Below, in pieces: positions 8,227-33,780 of a stretch of 64,000 nt of DNA. The position numbers and the translations under genes are program-made. Source of the DNA: a virus (taxonomy: Duplodnaviria > Heunggongvirae > Uroviricota > Caudoviricetes). The DNA lies in the IMG/VR virus record IMGVR_UViG_3300028992_000036. One strand, 5' to 3'. How positions within the stretch are numbered: position 1 is the stretch's first letter; the number at the start of each line of letters is the position of its first letter. Below the pieces are notes generated by a model that ran no database searches, was not told the DNA's origin, and saw nothing but the letters and a program-made list of their open reading frames with translations.

Positions 8227-8281
8227 CCTGCTTCCGTATATATTTAATAAGTTACTTATTATTTATATATACAGAAGCAGG
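8227..8281. repeat. 55-bp palindrome CCTGCTTCCGTATATA...TATATACAGAAGCAGG, copy 1 of 2
   Basis: 16-bp arms with 1 mismatch around an AT-rich loop; near-identical copy at 33724-33780; embedded in a longer imperfect inverted repeat (about 8205-8310). Confidence 0.55.
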
Positions 8282-8305
8282 TCTTTAAATAAGCTCCCAG
8301 ACCGA

Positions 8306-8572
8306 TTACATCACCAGTAACTTCGCTTTGGCTCGACCTAAAGTGGTTAACCCAAGAGTTCGGCGGTGATAGCGATTGTCACTGCGTTGGCGCGTATGCC
8401 CTTTCTCCACAAGCCCCTTTTTTATCAGAGCGCGAATTGAGAACTGGATACTTTGCTTGGTTGTCTTGTACGGCAAAACTTCAAGCAATTCGTCCAGATC
8501 AAGTAGATAACCTCGCTCATAACCGAGATTGAGCGTTTTGATGATGTCCTTTTGTTTATCGGTTAACGTCAT
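8306..8572 (-). CDS. small basic protein, possible winged-helix DNA-binding regulator
   Basis: 88-aa ORF; basic helix-rich sequence; first gene of the block upstream of the terminase operon. Confidence 0.4.
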   Translation of the reverse strand: MTLTDKQKDIIKTLNLGYERGYLLDLDELLEVLPYKTTKQSIQFSIRALIKKGLVEKGHTRQRSDNRYHRRTLGLTTLGRAKAKLLVM

Positions 8573-8581
8573 GGCAAATCC

Positions 8582-9472
8582 TTATGCCGGTAAAGCAATT
8601 TCTAACGGTTTATCCAAAGGTTGTTTGTCGAATGCCAGCAGTGGCAGCGTGTCAGGCAGTCGACGACCAAAGTCAGGGTTTCGATACACCCCATACAACG
8701 GAGACGTAAAGCTCAGGTTGTGAATGTCCTTGAGCAACTTCACAATGCTGGCCTCGTCCACCAGACTGTCGGCAATGTCCTGAATCGTCGTGCCACGATT
8801 CCGCCCAGCTTTTGCCAGGGAACTGTTCTTGTGGTAGTCCGCCACCAGATCACGCAGTGCACGGCGACGACGAGACTCGCTCATTGCGAACAACTCTTTG
8901 ACGATCGCCTCGTTATCACCCGGGTCGGAACGGAAATGGCGCTGGAATACACGCAGTGCACTTTCATAGCTCTTCGGTCGCTCAGGGCGGATGAACTTAA
9001 ACCCTGCTTTCATGGCGAAGGGATTGTATTTGCTCATCGAGGACTGGATCTCAATGATTGGCCGGTCATGCATCCTGCTAACCAGGTTAATCATTCGATA
9101 AGAGACGCCTACGCCACGATACTGAGTATCCACAACTGAGCGACTGATCACCGCAAAGTTGTTATTCACGTACCGACCCCAGTACTGGTTAGCCACGGTG
9201 GTATTAGTGGTTGGTTTCAACTTAGGAAACATGCGGTGGCGAGGTGCCAACAGTAGTTTCGGGTAAGCCATAACCACGACGCCCACCAGACGGTCATCAA
9301 GTTCGCAGCGATAGTAAGTTGGCGCGAAAGGTTTGCCGTCTGTTTTGTAGTGAAGCGACTTAAGAGCGTGCCAGTCCTCTACAGTTCCCTTTGTAACAGT
9401 CATTCGCTCCAGAAAGTCCAGATGACGCGGAAACTCTTCAGGGCGGTAGCGTTTAATGATGATGTCCGTCAT
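8582..9472 (-). CDS. hypothetical protein with GNAT-like motif (QYRGVGVSYRMINLV)
   Basis: 296-aa ORF; motif resembles acetyltransferase acetyl-CoA binding motif A; stop overlaps start of downstream ATPase. Confidence 0.4.
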   Translation of the reverse strand: MTDIIIKRYRPEEFPRHLDFLERMTVTKGTVEDWHALKSLHYKTDGKPFAPTYYRCELDDRLVGVVVMAYPKLLLAPRHRMFPKLKPTTNTTVANQYWGRYVNNNFAVISRSVVDTQYRGVGVSYRMINLVSRMHDRPIIEIQSSMSKYNPFAMKAGFKFIRPERPKSYESALRVFQRHFRSDPGDNEAIVKELFAMSESRRRRALRDLVADYHKNSSLAKAGRNRGTTIQDIADSLVDEASIVKLLKDIHNLSFTSPLYGVYRNPDFGRRLPDTLPLLAFDKQPLDKPLEIALPA

Positions 9473-10134
9473 GAATGGACCTCATCGTGACTACCATTGT
9501 GATATTCCACCTTCACGCGTTCTTTGTAGTGCTTGGTGATCTGCATATCCGGGCGCAGCGCGTTCTTCAGGTCTTCGTGAGTCGTCGCCACCATTACCGT
9601 CGCACCAACCTTTCGAGCGGCACGCTGGAGGTTAGACGCCACAACCTGAGCGGTTACACGGTCGAGAACAGCGCCGAACTCGTCAGCAGCCCACACTTTA
9701 GCGCCTGACTCAATCAGTTTGGCAATCTTGAGACGATATTTCTGGCCGTCTGACATTTCAGAAGGCTTGCGAACAAACAGATATGCATCGTTCAGACCAG
9801 CCATAGATAACAACCCAAGCGCATCACTGGTCGTTTTGCCCAACTGATCGATGACGTTAACCTCATTATCGAAGGTAAAATCATCGATGGAGGCTACAGA
9901 CAGCCCTTCATCCTTCATCTGTCGTTGCAACTCGCGCAGCACAACGGATTTGCCGGAACCGGATTGGCCGGTGATGTACACCACATCGCCCTGCTTCACT
10001 TCCAGCTCCAGATTGTCGTAAAGCGTCCACTCTTTTTCGTCCAGGCCAAGCCCGAACGACTCAGCGATTTCCAACGTGCGCGTGGTTTTATTTACGCGTG
10101 TCTGAAACGATACGTTGATGATGTATTTGCTCAT
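9469..10134 (-). CDS. stand-alone ABC-type ATPase domain protein
   Basis: Walker A GQSGSGKS, signature-like SDGQKYRL, Walker B VWAADEF, H-loop VATTHE; 221 aa with no transmembrane partner nearby. Confidence 0.65.
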   Translation of the reverse strand: MSKYIINVSFQTRVNKTTRTLEIAESFGLGLDEKEWTLYDNLELEVKQGDVVYITGQSGSGKSVVLRELQRQMKDEGLSVASIDDFTFDNEVNVIDQLGKTTSDALGLLSMAGLNDAYLFVRKPSEMSDGQKYRLKIAKLIESGAKVWAADEFGAVLDRVTAQVVASNLQRAARKVGATVMVATTHEDLKNALRPDMQITKHYKERVKVEYHNGSHDEVHS

Positions 10135-10799
10135 GCAGCCATCTCCCCGGAAGAGATCTTCTCCGCATATGCCACAAATGCGTCTACCCCGCTTTCTCCC
10201 GTCATTTCTTCCATGTGGGCAAGCAAATCACCAACAACAATGGCAGAGCCAGCAGGGAGCGTTTTAAAGCCCAATACGTCGACAACACGTACTTCTTCCG
10301 CTGCAACTTCACGACTGATCTCGGTGTGTTCATCCTTCTGTCGTTTAGTTTCTTCGCCAAGATCGATAACTAGCGAGTCGGTGTCCATTTCTTCTGTCAT
10401 ACTGCCAACGAGAACATTCAACTCACGCTCTTCAAAGCCGAAAACCTCGATATCGTCCAGAACAAGCGACTCAAGCTCTTTCTGTAGCTTAATTGCATCG
10501 TAATCAATGCTGGCAAGTCGGTTATCTTCAAGGCGCTTCGCACGAACCTCGTCATCACTGAGATCATCGCGAACAATAACCGGTACGCGCTCAAGTCCAG
10601 CAAAAATTGCAGCCTCACGGCGGCCGTGGCCAGTAATAATTACGTCGTTCTTATCGACCGTAATTGGCTGGTCAAATCCGCGCTTTTTAATGGCTGCGGC
10701 TAGATCTCGGATCTGCTGTTCATCATGCTTTTTGGCATTCATCTCATAGGGAATAAGATCTGCCGGGTCGCGATATACGATTTCAAACTTTTTGGTCAT
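10131..10799 (-). CDS. ParB-like nuclease domain protein (paralog 1); start curated to MTKKFEIVY
   Basis: ParB/Srx-type N-terminal motif IITGHGRREAA; TAATG overlap with upstream paralog. Confidence 0.65.
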   Translation of the reverse strand: MTKKFEIVYRDPADLIPYEMNAKKHDEQQIRDLAAAIKKRGFDQPITVDKNDVIITGHGRREAAIFAGLERVPVIVRDDLSDDEVRAKRLEDNRLASIDYDAIKLQKELESLVLDDIEVFGFEERELNVLVGSMTEEMDTDSLVIDLGEETKRQKDEHTEISREVAAEEVRVVDVLGFKTLPAGSAIVVGDLLAHMEEMTGESGVDAFVAYAEKISSGEMAA

Positions 10800-11497
10800 T
10801 ACATACGCTCCTTGTAGTAGTCGACCAGCCACACCAGAGCCTCACCAGCGTTCTCCATTTCATTACCGGTGTTAATAGCCTGCTCTTTGATGATGTTTTT
10901 TATGGTTTCTGCAACACGATCTGACGCATCGAAAGTTACTTTGAAGCGCATGGTCTGATGTTCCGCACCCACACGTTCGGTTTTCTCTCGTTTGTCGGTA
11001 TCGACAGGCTCATCACTACCACGAGACAACGCCTCCAGTGCTTCAAGGTCGATTGCCGCCTCTTTTGCTAAAACCATCGAGATTTCGTCGTCATACGGGG
11101 CGATTTCAGACAGTTGATAGTCAAGTTCTGACTGAATTTCTTCAATGAAGCGTTGCAATGCGATTTGGTCGTCTTCACCGTATCGCTCGTTGTCCACCAG
11201 TGACATCTGTTTAGCTACGACATCGCTAATTTTGCCCACAGAAAGCACCGGAACCGTTGAAATTCCTTGCTCAATAGCAGCACGCCAGCGATGTTCGCCG
11301 CCGAGGATTTCAAAAAATCCATCTTCAAGTTCACGAGCCAAAATTGGCTTAAAAAAGCCCAATTTTTCGATAGAACCTTTCAGTTTTTCAAAATTCTGCG
11401 CACCAACCGAATTGGTGTTCCAGGTATTCGGGCGAAGGTTGGCAACATCAACCTGCAAAATCGTGATTTTTACATCCATTTTATTGCTACAATCCAC
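10799..11497 (-). CDS. ParB-like nuclease domain protein (paralog 2)
   Basis: ParB box-like ILGGEHRWRAA; 232 aa; no ParA-type partner in window. Confidence 0.65.
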   Translation of the reverse strand: MDCSNKMDVKITILQVDVANLRPNTWNTNSVGAQNFEKLKGSIEKLGFFKPILARELEDGFFEILGGEHRWRAAIEQGISTVPVLSVGKISDVVAKQMSLVDNERYGEDDQIALQRFIEEIQSELDYQLSEIAPYDDEISMVLAKEAAIDLEALEALSRGSDEPVDTDKREKTERVGAEHQTMRFKVTFDASDRVAETIKNIIKEQAINTGNEMENAGEALVWLVDYYKERM

Positions 11498-11561
11498 TAA
11501 GTAATCACTTACTTATTATAATAGCCAAATAACATACAAAAGGCACTAAGGAAAGAGGTTT

Positions 11562-13121
11562 ATGACTGTTCGGATTGTATCTAACGCAGTAAATGCGCTT
11601 ATTTCTGGCGCAGATGACAAGGTAAAGCAACTGGTGCAGCAAATGTTGAGCTACGAAGTCGAGACTGGCGACTGGAAGGGCACAAGCACGATGTTCAACT
11701 GGAGTAAAAACTCGTTCCCTGCTGGCTTTGCCAAGCCTGTAGCGGCGAACTTGAACAAGGCGGGCATCAAATGTGTTCATATCCGCAAAGACAAAGCCCC
11801 GGCGCTTGGTAAACCAAATCCGGCGGTTAACCCATTCCCATACAATCCTGATTATGCGTATCAGGATCAGACTGTGGAAACACTGGTTCGAGAGGGAATG
11901 ATGATTGCGCAGATCGCTACTGGTGGCGGGAAATCTAACGTTGCCTGCAAAGCAGCTGCACGTATCGGTCGAATGACATTATTTTTAACAACCCGCTCTG
12001 TTCTGATGTTTCAAATGGCCGAAAACTTCCAGAGATCCATCGACTACCGCGCCGAAAATGGCGAACCGTGGTTAAAAGACCAAAAGGTTGGAGTCATTGG
12101 CTCGGGTGAGTTCCAGGTATCACGACATATCAACGTCGCTACAGTTCAAACTCTTGCAAGTTTCCTCGAAGAACCACCACGCGATGCAACACCAGATAAG
12201 AAAAGCTACCACCTCAAACGTCGGGAGTTGGTGAAACGCTTCCTTTCAAGTGTCTCTCTTCTTATTCTGGAAGAGGCGCATGAGTCTTCAGGCTCAAATT
12301 TCTATGACATCGCCAGATTATGTGTGAACGCAGACTATCGTCTGGCGCTTACAGCCACGCCGTTCATGAAGGATTCGACGGAAGCCAACATGCGCCTGAT
12401 GGCGGTGGCCGGGCGAATTGAAATTAAAGTCACAGAAAAGTACCTGATTGATCGAGGCATTCTGGCAAAGCCGTACTTCCTTTATCATAAAGTTGCCTAC
12501 AAGCCAGACGAGGCCAGAATCAAGGCCGAACTTGCCAACAAACACCTCAATTTTAGAGTTGGTATGAGCACCGCCTACCAAAAGGCTTATCAGTTGGGGA
12601 TCGTGTATAATTTGGGACGTAACGAGGCCATTGTTCGCGAAGCATTGCTCTATAAGCAACATTCTCTCAATTGTATGACTCTGGTTCGTCTTAAACGCCA
12701 CGGGCAAATCCTGATGGAAATGATGAAAGAGTCCGGCCTTAGAGTTGACTTCATCTATGGGGAATCTAACCAGGCGACAAGGCAAGCAAAGCTGAACAGT
12801 TTAGCGTCTGGAGAAATAGATGTTTTAATAGGCTCGACTATTCTGGATGTCGGTGTTGATGTGCCAAGCGTTGGTGCGGTCATTCTTGCTGGTGGTGGGA
12901 AAGCAGAAGTTGAAATGAGGCAGCGTGTCGGTCGTGGCTTACGAGCCAAAAAAAATCAGGCAAACGTGTGTTTTATCACTGATTTCATTGACATTAGCAA
13001 CAAATACCTGTTGTCTCACTCTTATGAGCGAAAACACATCATCGACACCACACCTGGCTTTGCAGAAGGTGTATTGCCTATTGATGGAGCATTCGATTTT
13101 GGAGTTCTGAAACGAGATTAG
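11562..13121 (+). CDS. superfamily 2 helicase (DEAD/DEAH-type)
   Basis: Motif I IATGGGKSN, motif II LILEEAHE, motif VI QRVGRGLR; AAGGAAAGAGG Shine-Dalgarno; divergent from the ParB/ATPase block. Confidence 0.75.
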   Translation: MTVRIVSNAVNALISGADDKVKQLVQQMLSYEVETGDWKGTSTMFNWSKNSFPAGFAKPVAANLNKAGIKCVHIRKDKAPALGKPNPAVNPFPYNPDYAYQDQTVETLVREGMMIAQIATGGGKSNVACKAAARIGRMTLFLTTRSVLMFQMAENFQRSIDYRAENGEPWLKDQKVGVIGSGEFQVSRHINVATVQTLASFLEEPPRDATPDKKSYHLKRRELVKRFLSSVSLLILEEAHESSGSNFYDIARLCVNADYRLALTATPFMKDSTEANMRLMAVAGRIEIKVTEKYLIDRGILAKPYFLYHKVAYKPDEARIKAELANKHLNFRVGMSTAYQKAYQLGIVYNLGRNEAIVREALLYKQHSLNCMTLVRLKRHGQILMEMMKESGLRVDFIYGESNQATRQAKLNSLASGEIDVLIGSTILDVGVDVPSVGAVILAGGGKAEVEMRQRVGRGLRAKKNQANVCFITDFIDISNKYLLSHSYERKHIIDTTPGFAEGVLPIDGAFDFGVLKRD

Positions 13122-13123
13122 TT

Positions 13124-13402
13124 ATGAGCGAAAAGAAAACAACTTATTGTCAGGTAGCATTGTCTGATAAGGCCAATGACAAACTTGGAAAGTTTCAAGT
13201 GAAACTAAAAGAAAAAAATATCAAAATGTCTAAGGCTGAAGTCATAAATACCATTCTGGAACAATTGACAATGGCCGACTTTGACAAGGTTATATCTTCT
13301 GTCGGGGCTTCCGCTAAGACTCGTGAGAAAATCATGCGTATCTATGAGAACTCTAATATGACAAAGGAAGATCTCGAAACGCTATTAAGCAGATTAAAAT
13401 AA
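13124..13402 (+). CDS. hypothetical protein
   Basis: 92-aa ORF 3 bp after the helicase stop. Confidence 0.4.
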   Translation: MSEKKTTYCQVALSDKANDKLGKFQVKLKEKNIKMSKAEVINTILEQLTMADFDKVISSVGASAKTREKIMRIYENSNMTKEDLETLLSRLK

Positions 13403-13428
13403 TCACGCTATCAATTAGGGAGACAAAG

Positions 13429-13893
13429 ATGAAGTCTCCCATACTGTTCACTTTCTGTTCTAAAACTATCATGAAATACTCGCTTCTCCCTCTACTAACG
13501 TTACCAGTGTTGATGCTTACCGCGTGCCAATCACGCCCAATATCAATCCATGACGCCAAACCAGCACCGCAGGCCAAAGTGTTCAAGTATCAAAGCGCAG
13601 CGCCAGCTACGTTGGTGGTAATGAGAGACACAGGTTTTGTAGGAGCTGGATGTGATGCTTCCATTTTCATCAACGGCGAAACTGTCGCAAAACTGGCTAC
13701 AGGCGAAAAAGCGACTTTCCATTTAAATGCCGGAGAATTAATTGTGGGTGCATCTCTTGAAGGTGCAGGTTTATGTGCTCTAAACCCCGCTCGTCAAGAG
13801 CGAGAAACGACTCTGAAGAATGGAGACACAAAAGCGTTCAGGGTGTTCACCAGCAATTCTGGTGACATCGACATTCTGCCAACAACTCTGTGA
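13429..13893 (+). CDS. putative lipoprotein
   Basis: Signal peptide ending in lipobox LTAC; AGGGAGACAAAG Shine-Dalgarno (alternative start at 13471). Confidence 0.5.
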   Translation: MKSPILFTFCSKTIMKYSLLPLLTLPVLMLTACQSRPISIHDAKPAPQAKVFKYQSAAPATLVVMRDTGFVGAGCDASIFINGETVAKLATGEKATFHLNAGELIVGASLEGAGLCALNPARQERETTLKNGDTKAFRVFTSNSGDIDILPTTL

Positions 13894-13897
13894 TGAC

Positions 13898-14422
13898 ATG
13901 ACAACCAAAGATATTACCTACGGTATCCAAGCTGAACTCTGGCCGCGAGATTACACTAACGTTGAAAAACTACTGATGTTCTGGCGCAGAGAACAAATTC
14001 CTGTAAGGGTCACTCTCGAAGATGGCCAGGCGTTTTGCATGTACGTTTATGGCCTCATGCCATCTCGTAACAAAGTTGACCTTTGCCCAGCCCCTTTTGA
14101 CAAAGAAAATCGTATAAGGCTCCCACTTGAACGCATTAGTACAATTGAATCAGGTGTGGTTGACAGTATCGCTCACGATTTCAAAGGTCGACTAACAGTT
14201 CACCCTGATTATGTCGATAATCGGCCATCACGCCGCGATTTTTTTGCAATTTGCAACCAAGCCTACAAAGCAAACAAATCTATAAGGGTGTACATGGCGG
14301 ATGGCCGTGAAATTGAGGGGGTGTCAGCAGGCGCAGATGCTTGTCAGGTTACACTACGTGTCGAGAACGGTAGAAAAATAGTTGTTTTGTTCGATTGGGT
14401 TGAACGAATTTTGCCTTTTTGA
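13898..14422 (+). CDS. hypothetical protein (start curated to MTTKDITY)
   Basis: ATG 4 nt after the lipoprotein stop; ORF-track start at 13820 overlaps the upstream gene. Confidence 0.45.
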   Translation: MTTKDITYGIQAELWPRDYTNVEKLLMFWRREQIPVRVTLEDGQAFCMYVYGLMPSRNKVDLCPAPFDKENRIRLPLERISTIESGVVDSIAHDFKGRLTVHPDYVDNRPSRRDFFAICNQAYKANKSIRVYMADGREIEGVSAGADACQVTLRVENGRKIVVLFDWVERILPF

Positions 14423-14425
14423 GTT

Positions 14426-14734
14426 ATGAAATCGATATTGTTACCACCATTATTTTTACTTTGCTCAGTTACGGCAAATGCAATGGACTATAAGCCTGTC
14501 ATTCAGTCGCTGATGAATGACGTGTGCTCAACGTCTCAGAATGTATCAGTTTGCATGTATCAATTTTCGGCAGCCGTAAAAGCAGGAAAAGCGATAGGTG
14601 AGAATGTGGAACTGTGTAAGAAAGTGGCAAATGAAGAAAGGGCAATGTTGGATTGCGAATCTAGCGAGTCATCGGCACAGTTCGTTGATGCGCTATTTGA
14701 CACCAATCGTAAGGCTGTAGAGTCTGTTCAATAA
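14426..14734 (+). CDS. small secreted/periplasmic protein
   Basis: N-terminal signal peptide MKSILLPPLFLLCSVTANA; 102 aa. Confidence 0.5.
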   Translation: MKSILLPPLFLLCSVTANAMDYKPVIQSLMNDVCSTSQNVSVCMYQFSAAVKAGKAIGENVELCKKVANEERAMLDCESSESSAQFVDALFDTNRKAVESVQ

Positions 14735-14920
14735 ATCTATAAGGTTAATAACCGGCTAAGTCCGGCTATTATTTTTCACATCACTTCTTTATATCTACAA
14801 ATCAAATAACCTAAATATATATAAGGTCTAAAGCCGCAATCGATTATTTATTTAGGGAACACCTTCGACGATCTCGCTTTTATTTCTAGGACTTTCATCC
14901 CTGCAAAAAATTTTAAAAAA

Positions 14921-17273: not shown

Positions 17274-17623
17274 GATTAATTCCTTATCGTAAATAACAAA
17301 TTGTTTTCTTGTTGGTGTTAATTATCGTTGTACGAATAAGGCGTCAAAGTGGAAAGTTGCGGTAGCCGGACGGGAACAGGTGGGTTTGTCGGTTGCCTGG
17401 AGGTAAGAGGTTGGTGTTATTAGCCTGAGGGAAACAGGATGGTCATTTAAGACCACCAATGCTGGTGGCCTTAATAATTATCGCCCGATTACGCTAAGGA
17501 TCTTTTCCTCAACTGATTTGTTGTTGCGACTAAACTGCCTTGCGTATCTGATGACAGAAGAGGCGTTTTGCTTTCTGACCATCTCGGCTCTTTCCTTCAG
17601 GCGTTTCTTGAAATCGCCCATAT

Positions 17624-19950: not shown

Positions 19951-20995
19951 GTGTTACGGGGGATAAAATCAGGAGTTGAATAAATACGAAAAAGGAGGCG
20001 ACACCCCTCCTTCCCTCCCCACTTATACATACCTGGCTTCTTCGCTATACATGTTGTGTTTTATCTGTCTCAACCTCTCTATAGGCGTTAATGCTCACTC
20101 CTTCCAGAATGTTCTATACGGCAACTATTTCTGTTGGTGAATTGGGTGTGTTGTTCTCTCTGTCGGTGTATGTGGTTTCGTTCGTTTTGCGGTGGTTCTT
20201 CTATGGGGTGTTCTCGTCGTTTTGGTGATTGTTCTTCTCCGTGTATGGAGTAATGGCAGGTGGGCGATTCCTTTCGTTGTTGTGTTTGAGTTGTTTGTCT
20301 GGAGTGTGTGAAAGGCTTTTGCAGTTATTCGTGTATTGGGTAATGGCATTTCCCGTGATTGTTGTGTTTCGTGTCTTTTGGGATTGAGAGAAACCTTGCG
20401 GTTACAGGCTTCGTTGGGGTTTCAGTGATTCTGGTGTTCTTCGCTGTTTGGGGAATGGCGTGTCGTGGGTATCGCGCGTATGAATGTTTTCGGATTGCCT
20501 GTGAAAGTTAGGTTGGTTGTCCGGTAGCCTGGGGAGAAGAGGTGGGTCTTTTCGGTAGCCTGCCATAAAGAGGTTGGTTGTTTTTGGAAATGGCATTTGT
20601 GTTATTTAGTTGTTTTGTTATGCCTGAAAATAAGTTGTTTATATGGTTGTGTAACGCAACGGGAGCGATTTTGAGCGTGTGTTTTTGTTGGTAGTATGTT
20701 GGGTCGTCTGTGGTGAAAATTGGACGCTGTGGCGCTGTCTGCTGCGTAGAGTTACGGGTATAAGCAGTGATGTGTGAAAACGTCAATTTTTTAGACCAAA
20801 TCGGGTGAAAGCGTTGATGTTTCGTTGATCTGTTATTCAGTTGTTTTCTTGATTGTATAAACAACTATAACTTATTGATATTTAAGGATGTGATTGCGGG
20901 TATGGAAGAAGAGTAGTGGCGATCAACGGATTCTTATAGAAAAGAATCAAATTGTGACCGCCATTATCAACTGATTGATTTGTTTACTTGTGTAG

Positions 20996-27016: not shown

Positions 27017-27397
27017 CTAATTGCCGGATAAAATGGGGTGAGGTGCTTGCCAGTAGGCTCCACCGTTCCATGTGAACCCCATGCGAATAAGAGTGTTTAT
27101 TGCGGCTTTGGTAGACTCCGATTCGACACTGGCTTTACGAAACTCTTGAACCTCTTTCGCCAACTTGTATGTAATTGTGCAGGGGACGATTGCAGCCCAG
27201 CCTTTCTCATGACTGTTAATGACCATCTGGATGTGACCATCCAGAATAGGTTGATTAGGCATGTTATTGAAAATGTCTGCCTGTTTTTGAATGTGAAGAA
27301 AAAGCCTTGCCAGCGCCATTTGCTCACTACGAGACAAGGGATTATCAAGAGGGCTTTTTGCAAAAGCTGCTATACGCTGTGCATCAATGCCAAACAT
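27017..27397 (-). CDS. hypothetical protein
   Basis: 126-aa ORF, start overlaps upstream stop. Confidence 0.45.
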   Translation of the reverse strand: MFGIDAQRIAAFAKSPLDNPLSRSEQMALARLFLHIQKQADIFNNMPNQPILDGHIQMVINSHEKGWAAIVPCTITYKLAKEVQEFRKASVESESTKAAINTLIRMGFTWNGGAYWQAPHPILSGN

Positions 27398-28101
27398 CAG
27401 CGCACCTCACCATCTTTATGGCTGGAGTTAACTTCCGTCATTAAATGTCTGACGTAATCGACAAGAGAGCCGCCTGGTGGAATCTGGCATTCCTCAACTA
27501 ACTGGAAGTAGATATCCGCTGCATTACGTGTATTGCTACCCGCGCATATTCTTTCTTCCCGAAGTGCATGAAGCTCGTTGATCAAACGGTCACACTCTCC
27601 GTTACGCTGATCCACAACGGCCTCAAGCTCTGCGACGCGTTCACCTGGCGTCTTACCTTCTTTGCGTTGGATGGTAACGACGAAATCGCCAATTGCAGGG
27701 ACGTTGTAATCCAGCTCAAGGTAGTTTTTGGCACCGCTGCGGACGAACTCACCCGCGAACATGGTGGCGAACATCGCAGAGGCCACTTCTCCGTTGAAAA
27801 GTGACTCCAGATCTAACGGAGTCCCGGCAGCAAGAGCCTCTTTTGCTGTATCCATTGCATCCATGAACCGATCAAACTCACTAGCGCGCTTTTCCAGGTC
27901 TTTCCATTGCTCGCTCCAACGTTTGGCAACGAAGTCTATGAATGTTTTCGCGGATTCATCAAAATTCCCCTCAAACTTAACGATGCCTTTATCAATAATG
28001 ATCTGGCCTACCGCATCCTCTGCATAACCTTTCAATGTAAACTTGAAAGGAAAATCGGAATGGCCTGTGACGTTAAAATGCTCTAACTGGAGGTTGCTCA
28101 T
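27397..28101 (-). CDS. hypothetical protein
   Basis: 234-aa ORF in operon with downstream gene. Confidence 0.45.
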   Translation of the reverse strand: MSNLQLEHFNVTGHSDFPFKFTLKGYAEDAVGQIIIDKGIVKFEGNFDESAKTFIDFVAKRWSEQWKDLEKRASEFDRFMDAMDTAKEALAAGTPLDLESLFNGEVASAMFATMFAGEFVRSGAKNYLELDYNVPAIGDFVVTIQRKEGKTPGERVAELEAVVDQRNGECDRLINELHALREERICAGSNTRNAADIYFQLVEECQIPPGGSLVDYVRHLMTEVNSSHKDGEVR

Positions 28102-28162
28102 GTGTTTTTCTCTTATCGTTTAGTAACTACATTCTTACATAAATTAAGTAAGCATTTACCTA

Positions 28163-29848
28163 TCATTTAACGCGTTTGAAAACGTATACGCTGACTGTGA
28201 TCCCTGTGTCTTCAAACTCGTTGGTAAACGACTTCCCTCTGGCATAAACGTAATTATCCATCGTCATCCAGTCCAGTATTGGCGCAGTGCCCGGCAATAC
28301 TGCTACAAGACGCCCGCCGACTTTCAGATGCCCCAGCGCAGCCAGCGTGTGCTCTCTATGACGACCAAGCGAGTACGGCGGGTTCATAACGATTTTGTCG
28401 AACTGATAACCTGCGTTGTCCTCAGACCACTTTATGAAGTCGCAGCAAATCGTGTTCGTATACCCTTTTCCACGCAGGATATCAGCGAAGAGAGGTGCGA
28501 TTTCTATGCAGGTAACATCTTCCAGATCGGCGTCAATATAGGCCAGAAGATCCCCACGTCCGGCTTGAGGCTCCAACAGCTTCTCACCAGGCTTCAATTC
28601 AGTGGCTCTTGCAACGTACTCAGCAATCAAGCGTGGGGTAGGGTAGAACTGGTGTGATTTTGTATCCGGTATTAAACCGGTAGCCACAATCGTATTTAGC
28701 GTATGGCCGATGTCATACGGGAACTGCCAGTGCTTTTTCTCCTGCACGCCGCCAATGAAGCTCAGTGTGCGCTCAAGCTCTTCCACCTGCGACTTCTGGA
28801 GAGCTGAATCAGAGAAGTACCATACACCTTTGTCTTTGCTCAATCGCCCGTCACGAAGCGCAGTGCGAACCGGCACGGAGATCGTCTTCTGGATTAAACC
28901 GAACTGCTTTGGTGCCCGTGTTTTTGGCGCAGTTCGGCATGGCGCGGGGATTGCAGCAGGCATACTGTAAGCCAGCACCTCATTCAACTTCCAGGCCACG
29001 TCAGGATGTATTTCAAAGTGAACGTTGCCGTTCTTGAACATCTTCACGCGCATCAGATTTCCATCGACGTTCATCCAGTCACCGGTCTGGCAGTCGTTTG
29101 CCCGATACGCAGCTGATAGCACCTCAGCAGTGCGGTTGATGGTAATAAATTCTTTGTGCGCGAAGAAATGAAGCAAGACACGCAGATCGTCGATGTAGTC
29201 CTCTTTGCGATAGTTCACGCTAACGCTGTCCCGCCAGAAATCAGAAATGCAGTCAGCGATTATCAGCCGCTCGCTGAAACCATTTGTCTTATTTGTCTTG
29301 TGCACAGGACTCAGCGCCTTAAACAAGCCATACACGCGCTCAGAGAGATATTTGTGCCTGTCATTCAGCAAATTAAGCATCGTGGGTATGACCGTTTCTG
29401 CTTTGAACTCCGGTACACCAACGAACTCTTTAACCTTCATCTGGTAGCCGGTTCTGTCAGTTTTGATGACTTCCTGTTTGCCCTCTATAAACTGCTCGCG
29501 CCACTCATCTCGACGGGAAGCTGGCATGATCAGCAAAACGTTAGTCATGTCCGTGACCTTCCTCCAGTACTCGGCCCAAATATTCTGTTTCACCCATTCC
29601 AGATCGACTTTATCCAACCAACCTCGATTTAAACGCGAGCGATCTTCATCTGGTCGATGGTTTAGTTTCAGCAGGCGATTAATCATGTTGTGGCGTTCGT
29701 CGCCATAAACGAAGTTGTGAACCTGATACATGAAGGCGATCTCTTTCTCGCACTCGGCCACAATTTCGTGGATAACGTTCATTTCCTGACGATAATCGAT
29801 AGCAGTGTTTGAGCTGGCATCGTCGATGATGGAAAGGGCTGTATTCAT
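28163..29848 (-). CDS. putative N6-adenine DNA methyltransferase with large N-terminal domain of unknown function
   Basis: C-terminal 170 aa carry FYPTP, motif I LLEPQAGRGDL and motif IV NPPYS; N-terminal about 390 aa has no recognisable motifs. Confidence 0.6.
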   Translation of the reverse strand: MNTALSIIDDASSNTAIDYRQEMNVIHEIVAECEKEIAFMYQVHNFVYGDERHNMINRLLKLNHRPDEDRSRLNRGWLDKVDLEWVKQNIWAEYWRKVTDMTNVLLIMPASRRDEWREQFIEGKQEVIKTDRTGYQMKVKEFVGVPEFKAETVIPTMLNLLNDRHKYLSERVYGLFKALSPVHKTNKTNGFSERLIIADCISDFWRDSVSVNYRKEDYIDDLRVLLHFFAHKEFITINRTAEVLSAAYRANDCQTGDWMNVDGNLMRVKMFKNGNVHFEIHPDVAWKLNEVLAYSMPAAIPAPCRTAPKTRAPKQFGLIQKTISVPVRTALRDGRLSKDKGVWYFSDSALQKSQVEELERTLSFIGGVQEKKHWQFPYDIGHTLNTIVATGLIPDTKSHQFYPTPRLIAEYVARATELKPGEKLLEPQAGRGDLLAYIDADLEDVTCIEIAPLFADILRGKGYTNTICCDFIKWSEDNAGYQFDKIVMNPPYSLGRHREHTLAALGHLKVGGRLVAVLPGTAPILDWMTMDNYVYARGKSFTNEFEDTGITVSVYVFKRVK

Positions 29849-29989
29849 AATTACACCATTAAATAATTTGTTTTCTGATTGGTGTAATTATCGCAAACTT
29901 GAAAAGGCATAAAAGCTGCATTCATAGGCGTTACAGCAGATTTAAGGCGTAAAAATGGGGGCTGTCGCCCCCTGTCGACTGGTGCTGTA

Positions 29990-30556
29990 TTAGAGTGCGT
30001 ATTGCGTTTTGTGCGGCTGCTTATTCAAGTCATGGCGATGCGTGAGCTCCCGCATCATGTCTTCAAGGCGACTCTTTGTGTCGTCGAGCTGGTCGGCCAT
30101 TGCACCTAAAAGCTGGCGAACGGCCATCGGATCGTCGCTGTTTAGTGATGGCATTTTAGAACCTGCTTTAGAAGACATAAGGTTGATTGCAGACATCAAC
30201 ATCGTTAGAGAGGATTTAAGCCCGGCAATTTCACGATCTTTGCTGGCAATAATCGTCTCACTTTTGTTACCGTCATCAGTTTCTTGAGTCTCGCTCACCA
30301 TATCCAAAGTCGCTTGCAACTTATCAGCTCTCTCTTTTTCAGCAAGGTAATGAACACCGAAATGGTGTGCCAAAGCTACAATCTGAGTTGGCTCTTCAAA
30401 GGTGGAATTAAAATTAAGTATTGTAAACAGTCTCTCAAATATGGAAACGTCTTCTATTCCTCGAAGAATGGCTAACATTTTGACCAGTTCATTAGCATCC
30501 ATTTCTTCGAATAAGGCGTTTTGTTCATCAGCTATCGCTTTGCATTTCTTGCACAT
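29990..30556 (-). CDS. hypothetical protein
   Basis: 188-aa ORF with AGGAAAAACAC Shine-Dalgarno and upstream AAACAAGTTGTTTTCT motif. Confidence 0.45.
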   Translation of the reverse strand: MCKKCKAIADEQNALFEEMDANELVKMLAILRGIEDVSIFERLFTILNFNSTFEEPTQIVALAHHFGVHYLAEKERADKLQATLDMVSETQETDDGNKSETIIASKDREIAGLKSSLTMLMSAINLMSSKAGSKMPSLNSDDPMAVRQLLGAMADQLDDTKSRLEDMMRELTHRHDLNKQPHKTQYAL

Positions 30557-30853
30557 GTGTTTTTCCTAATGCTTAAACAAGTTGTTTTCTTATTGTCTTT
30601 ATTGTGATGTGGCATAAAAGGGGAGCAAGCTAAACGTAAAGGTGCAAACTCTCTATTTCGGTCAACGAAACACAAGGGCCATTTGGCCCTTGTCATTAAC
30701 ACTTTGCTTTACGAACTAACGGATAAGCGAAGTAGATCGCCAAACCAATGAGGACGCCATCAGAAATGACAGACATCATCTTTCCCGTAAAATCCACCAA
30801 CACCGCCATCACCAGAAGAGCAATGACGATCACAAGCCGGAATCTCTCAAGCA

Positions 30854-31279
30854 TTAGAGATAAGCATCCAGTGACAACTGAAGCGCCTGGGCGATCTTTT
30901 TCAGTGCCTGCTCTTCTTGTTCACCAATGCCGTCCTGATCGGCAATATCAAGGCACAGACACAGAACATCGACCGCCTCTGGAGTACCCGCAATATCAGA
31001 CAGCTCACGAATAGCCTGTGCATTAGCAGAACGAGGGGACGCTTCGTAACGAGCACGGATATTGGCGCTCATTTGGGCAATTTCACCAGCAAACGGAGAA
31101 AACGCAGGCAGAGCTGCAATTGTCTTCTCAAGAATGGCAATTTCTTTTGCGTCACATGTGCCGTCGGCATAGGAGATCATGTACGCGCCCCACACGGTGG
31201 CCTCAACCGCATCACGGTTCTCCATTTTTTTGACTTCGATAACAGCTTTACGAGTTTTCTTTTTGAAGAAACCTAACAT
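30854..31279 (-). CDS. TerB-like (tellurite-resistance TerB fold) protein
   Basis: 141 aa; paired ADG-x-x-D-x-x-E and DIADQDGIGEQEEQALKKIAQAL motifs typical of TerB family; AAAAGGAAAG Shine-Dalgarno. Confidence 0.5.
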   Translation of the reverse strand: MLGFFKKKTRKAVIEVKKMENRDAVEATVWGAYMISYADGTCDAKEIAILEKTIAALPAFSPFAGEIAQMSANIRARYEASPRSANAQAIRELSDIAGTPEAVDVLCLCLDIADQDGIGEQEEQALKKIAQALQLSLDAYL

Positions 31280-31372
31280 GTGCTTTCCTTTTATTATTTG
31301 TCAAAACAAGTTGTTTTCTAATTACATAAATTGCTTACGCAGAGATGGTCAATGCATATGCACTAACAGCCG

Positions 31373-31561
31373 TCAGAAATAACCAAGTACCGAACCAACT
31401 GGAAAAACAAAAATCCCAACTACACGAGCCAAGGTCATGCCAGCCTGAAACTGGAGATCGCCAGAGCAAACAAGTTTTATAATGTTCGATACCCAACCGG
31501 CGGCCATAAGGGCAAGAATTGCCAGCCAAATTTTTCCAAAGTGATTTGAAAACCAGTTCAT
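31373..31561 (-). CDS. small membrane protein
   Basis: 62 aa, two hydrophobic helices; ATG overlaps the stop of the upstream ORF (ATGA coupling). Confidence 0.4.
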   Translation of the reverse strand: MNWFSNHFGKIWLAILALMAAGWVSNIIKLVCSGDLQFQAGMTLARVVGIFVFPVGSVLGYF

Positions 31562-31809
31562 ACAACCGCCTTAGTCACAGCATGATCCTGAGTAACTGGA
31601 TGAACTTGAGGTATCGCATCCACCGCCATCCCATCCAGAGTGACAGGACGCTCCACTGGAGTGGTGGTAATTGTCGTCGACGAAGGTGTGGTGATGGATG
31701 AATCCGGCATCAAAAGGCTCTGACCGGCTGGAACGGCTACCGTCGCCAGTGAAACTATAATGAGAACGTAGGCCATTGGTTTCAGCCTCTTTCTTTGAAA
31801 ATTTTCCAT
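31558..31809 (-). CDS. small Thr/Pro-rich secreted or membrane protein (overlaps alternative frame of 31571-32065)
   Basis: AAGGACAG Shine-Dalgarno before ATG; hydrophobic N-terminal segment; stop coupled to downstream start. Confidence 0.35.
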   Translation of the reverse strand: MENFQRKRLKPMAYVLIIVSLATVAVPAGQSLLMPDSSITTPSSTTITTTPVERPVTLDGMAVDAIPQVHPVTQDHAVTKAVV

Positions 31810-32065
31810 TCGAACTGTCCTTGTTGTTTTTCTCCTTCACTAAAGGCCGTGCATTTTTCGCTTCGCGTGAAGAACCAGAGGCAACAATCGCCCCCACGTT
31901 CGCAACAACTGACGCTTGATTATCTAAACGTTCATTCAGCAACCGAACGGTAGTCTCTAGTTCATCAAGGCGTGACATAACACGACCGCTAAATAATTCG
32001 GCCAAAATTTGACGTAAAGAACGAGGACGTTTAGTTACAGAAGTGAAATAGGTTTGACGTGCCAT
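31571..32065 (-). CDS. hypothetical protein; N-terminal coiled-coil-like half, C-terminal Gly/Ser/His/Cys-rich tail in the frame overlapping 31558-31809
   Basis: GGATGGAG Shine-Dalgarno before ATG at 32065; N-terminal 85 aa protein-like; 3' half is dual-coding. Confidence 0.35.
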   Translation of the reverse strand: MARQTYFTSVTKRPRSLRQILAELFSGRVMSRLDELETTVRLLNERLDNQASVVANVGAIVASGSSREAKNARPLVKEKNNKDSSNGKFSKKEAETNGLRSHYSFTGDGSRSSRSEPFDAGFIHHHTFVDDNYHHSSGASCHSGWDGGGCDTSSSSSYSGSCCD

Positions 32066-32213
32066 GTGGACTCCATCCAGTGTCAGAAAGAGTTGCGGCT
32101 GGCGATTGCCAGCCGCCTTTCTCGTTCCATCCTGGAACTGTGTCTTACCGACACATTGTCATCCTGACGCCGATAAGATACATGATTTAAAATGATAGGT
32201 AAACACTTACTTA

Positions 32214-32804
32214 CTATTTATTATAAACAAAACCAATATCTTTCTTGTGAGGCATATCTGCTGCTGAAAAAGCTGCGATCTTCGCGAGTCGATCACATAT
32301 TTCATTTTCACGATGCCCGGCGTGACCTTTAACCCACTTCCAGCGAACATTATGTCGACTTGCGGCCTCATCCAGACGCTTCCACAGATCAACATTCTTT
32401 ACCGGTTTTTTGTCAGAAGTCATCCATCCATTGCGTTTCCACCATTTCATCCACTGTGTCATGCCGTTTTTCAGATACTGGCTATCAGAGTGCAAAATAA
32501 CGTTGCATGGATATTTCAAACGCTCCAGCCCGATAAGTGCCCCCATCATCTCCATGCGGTTATTGGTGGTGCTATGAAAACCATCTGAGAACTCGCGTTC
32601 CTCACCACGATACTGGAGAACGATACCGTAACCGCCCGGGCCACCCGGATTTTTAAGGCAAGAGCCATCACTAAAGATTTTCACGGTTTTAAGCTGGGGA
32701 TTGAACTCTACGACAGGCGTTGTGGGATTGGTGCGGGGGGAATTTTTGTTTTTGGCTTTTTTGCGAGTTTTTGCTTGCGATCGGGCTGGTGTCTTCGTCG
32801 TCAT
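32214..32804 (-). CDS. rnhA: ribonuclease HI with about 40-aa basic N-terminal extension (start curated to MTTKTPARS)
   Basis: Core [24 protein letters not shown]...[11 protein letters not shown]...HSDSQY...[10 protein letters not shown]...[15 protein letters not shown] closely parallels E. coli RNase HI; CAGGAG Shine-Dalgarno. Confidence 0.85.
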
Positions 32805-33386
32805 ATAAACTCCTGAATCAAGCGCCGCGCCGATTTTTCCTCGCGCGTGCGCACACGCGTGCGTGTTAATAATTATTAAAATAAACAAATTACTTCCCAG
32901 AACAGGTTTTTATAAACCTGAACTGAACGAACGAAGTGAGTGAAGTTCACCTCGAACGAAGTGAGAGGTTGTCTTTTCAGGTAATACTCTCCCAGGGAGG
33001 TGAGTATAAAAATCTCTCACCAACCTGGTCGTTTCATAACCTGAAAAGTTATGGTCTAAGTCTACTGCCAGCTTAGACTTGGGAAGTTATGGATGACAGC
33101 ACCCCAGAACCGAGATCTTCCCACACTTTATGAAGGGGAGTACTGGATTCAACCTCTCGAAACACCCCAGACTCGACAATCATAAAGTGACCCTTGTCTC
33201 TGCTCACTTTGGTTCCCCCTTCCCCGACACCTAAACGGCACCAGTTCTACGCTGGTAGTGAGCTTTTTTAAACCTGACGCCAGTGACGCTTACCCCCACC
33301 CATCAGGTCGAGTCTCCAGTCTACGACTGGAAACTATCAGATCTTAGCACTTACAATTCACTTTATGAATAGTTTGTACTTATCTA

Positions 33387-33641
33387 TCATTGTGATTGAT
33401 TATTTTCTCTACCATGTAGTTGAACATTCAAGGCAAACACCTCATTGATCAACTCACCTAAAAGCTGTTCAACAAGTTCGCGATGCTCGCCAAGATGCAA
33501 GCACTTAATTGCCCATTCGTACAAGTTGAAAGCCTGCTCACGATCTTTCATCATTTCACGAGCCTGGGCCAGAAAATCGCTCTCTACGAGCGCAACGACA
33601 TTAGTCGGGTATGACATGTTGGTTTCCTTAAAGTGGTTCAT
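33387..33641 (-). CDS. hypothetical small protein
   Basis: 84-aa ORF. Confidence 0.4.
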   Translation of the reverse strand: MNHFKETNMSYPTNVVALVESDFLAQAREMMKDREQAFNLYEWAIKCLHLGEHRELVEQLLGELINEVFALNVQLHGRENNQSQ

Positions 33642-33723
33642 AAAATCGATTTTAAAGCGTCTGGGAAGGGGTTCTAGTGGATTCTGTTGTGATGTTCAGG
33701 TCTGGAGTCTCTGATACAAAACA

Positions 33724-33780
33724 GCCTGCTTCCGTATATTAATAATTAATATGTAGTTATTTATATATACAGAAGCAGGC
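33724..33780. repeat. 55-bp palindrome GCCTGCTTCCGTATAT...ATATATACAGAAGCAGGC, copy 2 of 2
   Basis: Same arms as the 8227-8281 element; lies just upstream of the Dam-like methyltransferase gene. Confidence 0.55.

What the first reader, a model, noticed from the sequence alone, without database searches (positions are those of the whole stretch)
8227..33780. Two copies of a 55-bp palindrome (CCTGCTTCCGTATATA ... TATATACAGAAGCAGG) 25 kb apart
Copies at 8227-8281 (between the small DNA-binding gene and the terminase operon) and 33724-33780 (upstream of the Dam-like methyltransferase) share identical 16-bp arms around AT-rich loops. The first copy is nested in a longer imperfect inverted repeat (about 8205-8310). 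Conserved long palindromes of this kind can be bidirectional terminators, recombination or resolution sites, or binding sites. Their placement at the boundaries of functional modules is suggestive.
Basis: seen in the sequence. Interest (0 to 1): 0.45.

Follow-up and report, generated by a model that had tools for sequence, protein, structure and literature searches.

The report
Conserved boundary palindromes of SSU5-like phage-plasmids
The two palindromes are real and belong to a set of three conserved, roughly 100-bp inverted-repeat cassettes that separate the main gene blocks of SSU5-like phage-plasmids; they probably act as sequence-recognised transcription barriers, but no experiment has tested this.

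Summary
The window is an E. coli SSU5-like phage-plasmid. Copy A (8227-8281) and copy B (33725-33779) have 16-bp inverted arms of consensus CCTGCnTCyGTATATA around a 23-24-bp pure A+T core. Each is nested in outer inverted GGTCTGGG/CCCAGACC repeats.

A third copy (C) lies outside the window, upstream of the DnaB-helicase/primase block. Cyrano, SSU5 and pSAN1-1735 each carry exactly three copies at the same three junctions between co-directional gene blocks.

The arms are 84-100% identical between lineages, against 28-76% for the flanks. They are conserved as sequence, with no covariation above shuffled controls.

B and C are followed by a T-run in the gene direction only; A is not. In more distant relatives the sites decay, and ordinary terminator hairpins lie beside the remnant (K. 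oxytoca B) or at the same relative position (Morganella C). An Acinetobacter relative has two cassettes of the same architecture but a different sequence at syntenic places.

The linear SSU5 record begins and ends inside copy A, which weakly hints at a packaging end.

Best reading (about 40%): factor-recognised boundary terminators or insulators. Rivals are lytic origins, a terminase site, and regulator operators. Recombination sites, mobile repeats and known RNA families are not supported.

The parts
8227..8281 (-). Copy A core. Arms 8227-8242 and 8266-8281 around a 23-nt A+T spacer. The whole is a near-perfect palindrome, and the spacer contains an inner palindrome AATAAGTnACTTATT.
   Evidence: The arms are 91-100% identical across six lineages, against 67-76% for the flanks.
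8205..8212 (.). Outer repeat GGTCTGGG on the terS side of copy A. It reads CCCAGACC in the gene direction.
8294..8303 (.). Outer repeat CTCCCAGACC on the upstream-gene side of copy A, the inverted partner of 8205-8212.
   Evidence: In the pSAN1-1735 lineage both partners changed together.
8188..8193 (-). A second CCCAGA repeat between copy A and terS, about 20 bp from the first and in direct orientation with it.
8128..8149 (-). Terminator-like hairpin plus T-run immediately before the terS-like start codon (8109). This is a second barrier downstream of copy A.
   Evidence: An equivalent hairpin plus T-run precedes the terS-like gene of the Acinetobacter relative.
7477..8109 (-). terS-like DNA-binding protein (phrog_867), the first gene after copy A. 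Its stop codon overlaps the terL start.
8306..8572 (-). 88-aa gene (phrog_900), the last gene before copy A. It has weak wHTH-regulator matches far below the curated cut-offs and is one candidate binding protein.
33725..33779 (-). Copy B core. Arms 33725-33740 and 33764-33779, 24 nt downstream of the dam stop codon.
33714..33724 (-). T-run directly after copy B in the gene direction (CTGTTTTGTAT on the minus strand).
33647..33707 (-). Array of CCAGAC-type repeats downstream of copy B in the gene direction: GGTCTGGAG at 33699-33707 and GTCTGGG at 33659-33665. It ends in the motif CCCAGACGCTTTAAAATCG, about 40 nt before the next start codon. Copy C has the related CTCCAGTCGCTATGAT.
33791..33799 (.). 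Degenerate outer repeat CGCCAGAAC on the dam side of copy B.

Best explanation
The two palindromes are copies A and B of a three-copy 'boundary cassette' specific to SSU5-like phage-plasmids. Copy C lies outside the window.

Shown:
- Each cassette consists of an outer inverted GGTCTGGG/CCCAGACC repeat, 16-bp inverted arms (CCTGCnTCyGTATATA) and a 23-25-bp A+T core.
- Each fills the gap between two long gene blocks transcribed in the same direction:
  - A: ParB-like/ABC-ATPase block, then the terminase and virion block.
  - B: nucleotide-metabolism/Dam block, then small accessory genes.
  - C: partition and cargo block, then the helicase-primase block.

Inferred:
- In the transcript the cassette folds into a 16-26-bp hairpin that stops or processes read-through from one block into the next.
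- At B and C the hairpin is followed by a T-run and works as a factor-independent terminator.
- At A there is no T-run. There the hairpin is backed up by a second, canonical terminator just before terS.
- The arms are conserved as sequence in all three copies and across genera. I therefore infer that a phage-encoded factor also recognises the site, as DNA or as hairpin, so that the barrier can be regulated: held closed in the plasmid state and opened in lytic growth.
- The identity of that factor is unknown.
For: - Three copies per genome sit at the same three junctions in Cyrano, SSU5 and pSAN1-1735. Each starts 170-175 nt before the next start codon (gene maps).
- The genes on both sides of every copy are co-directional (same calls).
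- The hairpins are strong: -51, -42 and -48 kcal/mol, z = -5 to -9.
- A T-run follows the 3' arm in the gene direction at B (mean 5.3 T in 10 nt, against 3.3 antisense) and at C (6.0 against 4.4).
- Plain terminators lie at or next to the site in relatives:
  - K. oxytoca site B has lost one arm, and a canonical hairpin plus CTTTTG lies just downstream of the remnant.
  - K. oxytoca site A pairs only in the sense strand (-29.4 against -16.8 kcal/mol) and is followed by CTCTCTTTTT.
  - The Morganella-type lineages have a GGGAGCA/TGCTCCC hairpin plus TTTCTTT at the same distance before the phrog_2500 gene.
- Both sides of the outer helix at site A changed together in the pSAN1 lineage. Sites B and C of that genome, and the terS-like N-terminal domain, stayed unchanged.
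- Evidence for sequence-specific recognition:
  - Arm identity is 0.84-1.00, against 0.28-0.76 for the flanks.
  - Pairing is 92.9%, the same as column-shuffled controls, so there is no covariation signal.
  - A and C spacers co-vary by lineage.
  - An Acinetobacter relative has two cassettes of the same architecture with their own shared sequence at syntenic places.
Against: - Copy A has no T-run in most lineages.
- The terminator scan called neither copy, because the loop is 23 nt.
- The stems are far longer than termination needs.
- The outer 3' repeat lies beyond the T-run, so it would be absent from terminated RNA.
- Sense-versus-antisense hairpin stability is inconsistent: at site B of Salmonella and Klebsiella the antisense strand folds 8-12 kcal/mol better.
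- The Acinetobacter cassettes have no T-run.
- Ordinary terminators are common in intergenic gaps, so their presence at or near the same positions in relatives may be coincidence.
- Covariation in DNA palindromes can arise by template-switch correction without any selection for structure (my own knowledge).
- No transcript 3'-end data exist for this family in the papers I could reach.
Confidence: 0.4

Rival explanations
1. The cassettes are DNA-level origins of lytic replication. A phage initiator would bind the inverted arms and the CCAGAC iteron-like repeats, melt the 35-bp A+T core and load the phage DnaB-type helicase. The RepA/iteron origin at 49.6-51.4 kb would serve only plasmid-mode replication.
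For: - The architecture is inverted binding sites in helical phase flanking a pure A+T core, with 2-4 direct CCAGAC repeats about 20 bp apart on one side.
- Copy C lies directly upstream of the phrog_2500-DnaB-primase operon. That synteny, and a cassette of the same design, are kept in the Acinetobacter relative.
- The sequence is conserved without covariation and is shared between copies within a lineage.
- The element encodes its own replisome and has a separate plasmid origin.
Against: - Two or three origins would be unusual.
- The T-runs, and the plain terminators found at or next to these positions in relatives, are not explained.
- The sites are lost or degenerate in the K. oxytoca and Morganella-type lineages, which keep the same replication genes.
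- GC skew is uninformative.
Confidence: 0.2
2. Copy A is the terminase recognition and cleavage site (cos or pac). B and C would be paralogous sites that also bind the small terminase, acting as alternative packaging starts or decoys.
For: - Copy A lies about 120 bp upstream of terS-like/terL.
- The linear SSU5 record (NC_018843) ends ...GACTTATTA and starts AATATATACGGAAGCAGG. The break is inside copy A, 8-9 nt from its dyad, with no base lost or duplicated relative to circular relatives.
- Repeats flank a central A+T region, as I recall for P1 pac (my own knowledge).
- A terS-proximal inverted/direct repeat cluster is present in every lineage examined, including Aeromonas.
Against: - Only one record supports an end there.
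- Cyrano's identical break was most probably copied from SSU5, because that record is a re-annotated plasmid.
- PhiR41_1 is not opened at A or B, and vB_KpnS_p4727 starts at a start codon.
- IMG/VR contigs do not end in the site. The one exception is a draft-genome contig that breaks at the repeat.
- B and C carry the same arms and repeats. Cutting there would fragment the genome.
- The terL relatives are only about 25% identical and use mixed packaging strategies.
- The terS-like protein has no match among solved structures by sequence search.
Confidence: 0.15
3. The cassettes are operators or roadblock sites of a global phage regulator that controls the three lytic operons from dispersed sites, as the C1 repressor does in P1.
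For: - There is one site in front of each major lytic block.
- The dimer-type inverted half-sites are conserved as sequence.
- A small protein with a weak wHTH match is encoded next to A in all enterobacterial lineages examined.
- B and C share a downstream promoter-like motif.
Against: - The sites lie about 70-90 bp upstream of the only promoter-like motif.
- No sigma-70-type promoter overlaps them in the gene direction.
- Operator sequences usually diverge between heteroimmune relatives, yet these are constant across E. coli, Salmonella and Klebsiella.
- This rival overlaps the regulated-barrier version of the best explanation.
Confidence: 0.1
4. The cassettes are dispersed partition (centromere) sites, like the four scattered centromere palindromes of N15.
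For: - In the minimal arrangement, copy C follows directly after parA and a 119-aa gene (phrog_5111) that has only a faint RHH-type match below cut-off.
- ParB_N-domain genes lie upstream of A.
- A composite site with an A+T centre recalls P1 parS (my own knowledge).
Against: - Variable cargo is often inserted between the par genes and C.
- In Acinetobacter the par-like genes are 10 kb from C'.
- The arms are not self-palindromic 16-mers of the parS type.
- RHH-type partition proteins bind short repeat arrays (my own knowledge).
Confidence: 0.05
5. The cassettes are site-specific recombination or resolution sites, or telomere-resolvase targets.
For: - The arrangement is inverted arms around a spacer.
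- A tyrosine recombinase is encoded in the element.
Against: - The 23-25-bp spacer is far longer than the 6-8 bp of tyrosine-recombinase cores (my own knowledge).
- The recombinase gene is 10 kb from the nearest copy.
- Recombination between three copies in a circle would delete or invert 30-47-kb segments.
- Order and orientation are constant in the five relatives examined.
- No protelomerase is annotated, and the plasmids are circular.
Confidence: 0.03

Closest known systems
Factor-independent (intrinsic) terminators, and the long RNase III processing hairpins between T7 genes (my own knowledge)
   Same: - Stable hairpin at the 3' end of co-directional operons.
- T-run after the stem in the gene direction at B and C.
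- Paralogous copies at several gene-block junctions.
   Different: - The stem is 16-26 bp and the nominal loop 23-25 nt.
- Arms and spacer are conserved as sequence across genera.
- Outer inverted repeats lie beyond the T-run.
- Copy A has no T-run.
Origins with inverted initiator sites around an A+T-rich unwinding element: HSV oriS/oriL, archaeal ORB-DUE-ORB origins, and lambda ori with iterons plus an A+T region (my own knowledge)
   Same: - Inverted sequence-conserved arms and iteron-like repeats flank a 35-bp A+T core.
- There are several copies per genome.
- One copy lies next to the helicase-primase operon.
   Different: - No initiator has been identified.
- The copies lie at operon ends and carry T-runs.
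- The sites are degenerate or absent in relatives that keep the same replication genes.
P1 pac and lambda cos packaging sites (my own knowledge)
   Same: - Copy A lies just upstream of terS/terL.
- Repeats flank a central A+T region.
- One virion-derived record is broken inside it.
   Different: - There are three copies per genome.
- No independent evidence of physical ends exists.
- No GATC or other known packaging motifs are present.
Dispersed cis sites of other phage-plasmids: the four scattered N15 centromere palindromes and the many P1 C1 operators (my own knowledge)
   Same: - A few copies of one conserved palindromic site are scattered over a plasmid-prophage genome.
- They lie next to replication and late-gene control regions.
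   Different: - The sequences are unrelated.
- The half-sites are 39 bp apart centre to centre.
- No binding protein is known.

Membership tests
Intrinsic terminator | G+C-rich stem-loop with a short loop | tested here: inconclusive
   The stem is G+C-rich at its base (10 bp) and very stable. The nominal loop is 23 nt and pairs further only at A and C. The scan (loop 3-8 nt) did not call either copy.
Intrinsic terminator | Run of T directly 3' of the stem on the transcribed strand | tested here: inconclusive
   Met at B (CTGTTTTG, CTTTTT) and C (TCTTTTT). Not met at A in most lineages. Met at A in K. oxytoca.
Intrinsic terminator | Transcript 3' ends map to the T-run | not testable with these tools
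   No term-seq or 3'-end data for this family were found in the papers I could reach.
cos/pac packaging site | Adjacent to the terminase genes | tested here: met
   This holds for copy A only, about 120 bp upstream of terS-like/terL.
cos/pac packaging site | Virion DNA ends map to the site | tested here: inconclusive
   The SSU5 record breaks inside A. Cyrano's break is most probably copied from it. The other records are opened elsewhere. The SSU5 papers are not held.
cos/pac packaging site | One functional site per genome | tested here: not met
   There are three copies with the same arms and repeats.
Tyrosine-recombinase core site / resolution site | Inverted arms around a 6-8-bp crossover spacer, with a recombinase nearby | tested here: not met
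   The spacer is 23-25 bp. The integrase-family gene is about 10 kb from copy C. No rearranged relatives were seen.
Replication origin (iterons + A+T-rich unwinding element) | Repeated binding sites next to an A+T-rich element | tested here: met
   CCAGAC repeats (one inverted, 2-4 direct) flank a 35-37-bp A+T core. This is architecture only.
Replication origin (iterons + A+T-rich unwinding element) | Initiator protein binds the site and replication starts there | not testable with these tools
   The candidate neighbour protein phrog_2500 has no informative fold match. GC skew is uninformative.
Mobile palindromic repeats (MITE/REP/ERIC type) | Many copies dispersed in host chromosomes and in unrelated contexts | tested here: not met
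   In 5,426 complete E. coli genomes there are 1,046 matching places on plasmids and 2 on a chromosome. The three positions are fixed.
Known RNA families (Rfam 15) | Match at or above the gathering score | tested here: not met
   There are no matches in the whole window at the gathering score. Only sub-threshold generic hairpin (miRNA-precursor) matches fall at the two sites.
Partition centromere (parS type) | Adjacent to the par operon and bound by its ParB | tested here: inconclusive
   C follows parA and the 119-aa phrog_5111 gene directly in pSAN1-1735. It is separated from them by cargo in Cyrano and SSU5 and lies far from the par genes in Acinetobacter. Binding cannot be tested here.

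The most novel reading that the evidence does not exclude
The three cassettes are DNA-level entry points for lytic-cycle DNA transactions, not mere terminators. They could be multiple lytic origins. They could be three equivalent terminase entry sites, giving full-length virion chromosomes with three alternative ends. Or they could be palindromes that the phage's own SbcCD/RuvC-type nucleases cut to create the DNA ends needed to start T4-like recombination-dependent replication from a circular plasmid prophage.
Probability: 0.3. Interest if true: 0.7.

Novelty: new variant of a known kind. Interest (0 to 1): 0.5.

Why it matters
SSU5-like phage-plasmids are common carriers of resistance genes in Enterobacteriaceae. 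The A-region is found in 778 PLSDB plasmids, and the cassette occurs in 260 of 5,426 complete E. coli genomes.

In the papers I could reach, nothing describes their lytic origin, packaging site or transcription control. A three-copy, family-wide cis element at the junctions of the replication, packaging and accessory blocks is therefore a concrete handle on how these elements switch between plasmid and phage life.

It also marks the edges of the variable cargo regions: the left flank of copy C is only 28% identical between genomes. The cassette could be used to delimit modules and to detect or type these plasmids.

Tried and rejected
Literature:
- I searched for SSU5 termini, cos or pac sites and for these palindromes, and found nothing relevant.
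- The SSU5 genome papers and Gilcrease & Casjens 2018 are not held. A 2026 preprint could not be opened.

Leads that gave nothing:
- Large-terminase relatedness does not reveal the packaging type. The nearest characterised relatives are about 25% identical and use mixed strategies.
- Contig ends in IMG/VR as a proxy for physical ends. Only one contig (L100) ends in a palindrome, and it is a draft isolate contig breaking at a repeat.
- vB_KpnS_p4727 looked as if it started near copy B, but it starts at a start codon.
- GC skew shows no inflection at the sites.
- Rfam gives nothing.
- The sense-versus-antisense hairpin energy test for an RNA-level role gave inconsistent results between sites.
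- Covariation in the arms is no greater than in shuffles.
- PDB sequence searches, Pfam and NCBIfam on the neighbouring small proteins and on phrog_2500 gave no informative match.

Hypotheses considered and dropped:
- Mobile-repeat (MITE) hypothesis, rejected.
- A LexA box: the arms contain only CTGTAT half-sites about 35 bp apart (sequence inspection).
- A T4-type late promoter (TATAAATA in the spacer), because no matching sigma factor is evident.
- IHF and DnaA boxes: none seen by eye.

Full report
**What the window is.** Both palindrome regions are 98-99% identical to Escherichia phage-plasmids CMS-2020a, PhiR41_1 and Cyrano (pLF82). They are 77-86% identical to Salmonella phage SSU5 and to Klebsiella plasmids such as pJN2-26. 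The window is therefore part of an E. coli SSU5-like phage-plasmid of about 108 kb. Nearly all genes in the window run on the minus strand. The window corresponds to Cyrano coordinates 52.6-108.4 kb plus 0-8.2 kb.

**The observation.**
- Copy A is at 8227-8281 and copy B at 33725-33779.
- Each has two 16-bp inverted arms around a 23-nt spacer made only of A and T.
- The arm 16-mer, allowing up to 3 mismatches, occurs 5 times in the window, against 0.29 expected.
- The copies are 82% identical over 57 nt and lie in direct orientation.
- The arms are not quite identical. The left and right arms of each copy differ at position 9.
- The larger inverted repeat around A is real. GGTCTGGG (8205-8212) pairs with CCCAGACC (8296-8303), each 12-14 bp outside the arms.
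- Copy B has degenerate versions of the outer repeat at the same distance, plus further copies on the gene-downstream side.
- One correction: dam is on the minus strand, so B lies just after its stop codon, not upstream of it.

**A third copy, and conservation.**
- Searching complete relatives for the arm found exactly three sites in each:
  - Cyrano: 0, 31.16 and 78.08 kb.
  - SSU5: the record ends, 33,458 and 78,304.
  - Salmonella plasmid pSAN1-1735.
- The third copy (C) is outside the window. It lies between the partition/cargo genes and an unknown gene (phrog_2500) that precedes the DnaB-type helicase and primase.
- Every copy lies between genes transcribed in the same direction and starts 170-175 nt before the next start codon.
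- A scan of IMG/VR with the arm pattern gave 120 loci. From these loci plus the fetched reference genomes I oriented 74 sites in three contexts: 30 A, 21 B and 23 C.
- Mean pairwise identity between lineages:

| Segment | Context A | Context B | Context C |
|---|---|---|---|
| Left arm | 0.91 | 0.95 | 0.95 |
| Right arm | 1.00 | 0.84 | 0.92 |
| Spacer | 0.88 | 0.77 | 0.71 |
| Left flank (70 nt) | 0.76 | 0.67 | 0.28 |
| Right flank (120 nt) | 0.67 | 0.64 | 0.69 |

- The left flank of C is different in almost every genome. The cassette therefore marks the edge of a cargo region.
- The element is confined to these plasmids. In 5,426 complete E. coli genomes, 1,046 matching places are on plasmids and 2 are on a chromosome. 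No Rfam family matches.

**Sequence or structure?**
- On 23 distinct arm pairs, 92.9% of cells form a pair, exactly what column shuffles give (92.9 +/- 0.6). There is no excess of compensatory changes. The arms are therefore conserved as two copies of one sequence, CCTGCnTCyGTATATA. Positions 6 and 9 vary freely.
- The centre nucleotide of the spacer varies, as expected for a dyad axis.
- The A and C spacers are the same within a lineage and differ between lineages: AATAAGTAAC in E. coli and ACTAAGTKAC in Salmonella. This indicates gene conversion between copies or a shared reader.
- The outer helix of site A changed on both sides in the pSAN1 lineage, from GGTCT/AGACC to CAACT/AGTTC. Sites B and C of that genome kept the usual motif. 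The terS-like N-terminal domain is unchanged. This favours base pairing, although template-switch correction of DNA palindromes could produce the same pattern (my own knowledge).
- Hairpin energies do not consistently favour the sense strand.

**Terminator features.**
- In the gene direction the 3' arm is followed by CTGTTTTG or CTTTTT at B and by TCTTTT(T) at C. At A it is followed by CTTAATAAGA or the like. The antisense side has no comparable run.
- Copy A is followed, just before the terS-like start codon, by a canonical hairpin plus T-run at 8128-8149.
- In a K. oxytoca plasmid whose terS-like protein is 59% identical, the three sites are recognisable but degenerate:
  - A pairs only in the sense strand and is followed by a T-run.
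  - B has lost its gene-distal arm, and an ordinary terminator hairpin lies just downstream of the remnant.
- A lineage whose neighbouring protein is 64% identical keeps the arms, has a different spacer, and has CTTTT after the 3' arm.
- Morganella-type lineages have no such palindrome at position C. Instead they have a plain hairpin plus T-run at the same distance from the gene.

**More than a terminator.**
- The stems are much longer than termination needs.
- The sequence is frozen across genera and across paralogues.
- The outer repeats lie beyond the T-run.
- CCAGAC-type repeats are arrayed about 20 bp apart on the gene-proximal side.
- An Acinetobacter plasmid (terS-like 32% identical) lacks the CCTGC arms. 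It has two cassettes of the same design with their own shared sequence: TTGGG twice, TTTTCCG, CGAATAAT, about 45 bp of A+T, ATTATTCG, CGGAA, CCCAA twice.
  - One lies one gene upstream of its terS-like gene.
  - The other lies directly upstream of its phrog_2500-DnaB operon.
  - These are the only two such places in that genome, and neither has a T-run.
- An Aeromonas relative has a cluster of one inverted and two direct CCTCGGAAC repeats upstream of its terS-like gene.
- The architecture and two of the positions are thus old, while the sequence is lineage-specific. That pattern is expected for a site read by a co-evolving protein.

**The packaging hint.**
- The linear SSU5 record ends and starts inside copy A, 8-9 nt from the dyad, with no base missing or duplicated.
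- Cyrano has the same break, but that record is a re-annotated plasmid aligned to SSU5, so it is not independent evidence.
- Other records are opened elsewhere.
- The large terminase is too distant from characterised ones to infer a packaging mode.
- Because B and C carry the same arms and repeats, a simple single-site cos model does not fit.

**Conclusion.** The finding is real and better than first described. It is a three-copy, family-specific composite palindrome at the junctions of the main gene blocks.

| Reading | Probability |
|---|---|
| Regulated transcription barrier: long-hairpin terminators at B and C, a hairpin plus a second terminator at A, read sequence-specifically by an unidentified phage factor | about 0.4 |
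| Lytic replication origins | 0.2 |
| Terminase recognition at A | 0.15 |
| Operators of a global regulator | 0.1 |
| Partition sites | 0.05 |
| Recombination sites | 0.03 |

None of these can be decided without experiments. The decisive ones are read-start analysis of virion DNA, transcript 3'-end mapping, marker-frequency analysis after induction, cassette deletions and binding assays.

Noticed in passing
window 49625-49730 and 50841-51384, flanking ORF 49631-50845 (+): About 12 iterons with core GTATGCTGTCAGCGGT lie on both sides of a RepA-like gene. This is the plasmid-mode origin, distinct from the palindromes.
   Followed up: partly
window 8150-8164, 8176-8190, 18960, 19445, 23278, 26901, 29860, 30574, 31283, 41502: The inverted-repeat motif AAACAAnTTGTTT(TCT), with about 35 nt of conserved downstream sequence, recurs in at least 10 intergenic gaps. 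Two copies lie between copy A and terS. It may be an early promoter or operator family.
   Followed up: no
window 4698, 6206, 11497, 28145, 32195, 34408, 43958, 48643, 52150, 61958: The roughly 20-bp palindromic motif ATARGTAAGTAnnTACYTAT recurs in many intergenic gaps; where I checked (upstream of the gene after copy C in relatives) it lies 15-35 nt before the start codon. The Acinetobacter relative has about 30 copies of an analogous TTAGTAAGCGCTTACTAA. The centre of copy A (AATAAGTnACTTATT) resembles its half-sites.
   Followed up: partly
window 8128-8149 (minus strand): A canonical hairpin plus T-run lies directly before the terS-like start codon. An equivalent one precedes the terS-like gene of the Acinetobacter plasmid. 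The late operon may need antitermination.
   Followed up: partly
window 35506-35548: An ordinary bidirectional terminator (20-bp arms, 3-nt loop, with an A-run and a T-run) shows what standard terminators look like in this element.
   Followed up: no
window 17356-17443 and 20518-20578: Tandem repeats of about 30 nt (GGTAGCCTGG...AGGTKGGT) occur at two places 3 kb apart. Their function is unknown.
   Followed up: no
window 8306-11497 (minus strand); L135 26004-31277; L145 42869-47473: An operon of two ParB_N-domain proteins and one or more ABC-type ATPase-like genes lies directly upstream of the terS-proximal site. It is conserved from Enterobacteriaceae to Acinetobacter and Aeromonas relatives. 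In the enterobacterial lineages an 88-aa gene with a weak wHTH match ends the operon. Its function is unknown.
   Followed up: partly
L009 31159-31211 (Cyrano), SSU5 33458-33513, and the left flank of copy C in about 13 IMG/VR loci: The sequence immediately upstream of copy C differs in almost every genome (28% mean identity), while the cassette and its downstream side are conserved. This is a cargo-insertion or recombination boundary.
   Followed up: partly
L001 1-20 and L002 2460-2500 (SSU5 NC_018843 record ends): The linear SSU5 record is opened inside copy A, at the boundary between the spacer and the gene-proximal arm. It could be a physical end or an assembly break at a hairpin.
   Followed up: partly
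[not shown]
   Followed up: partly
L141 3787-4023, L142 3787-4041, L145 6628-6951: An Hfq-like gene sits between phrog_2500 and the DnaB-type helicase in the Morganella-type and Aeromonas relatives. It is absent from the E. coli element.
   Followed up: no
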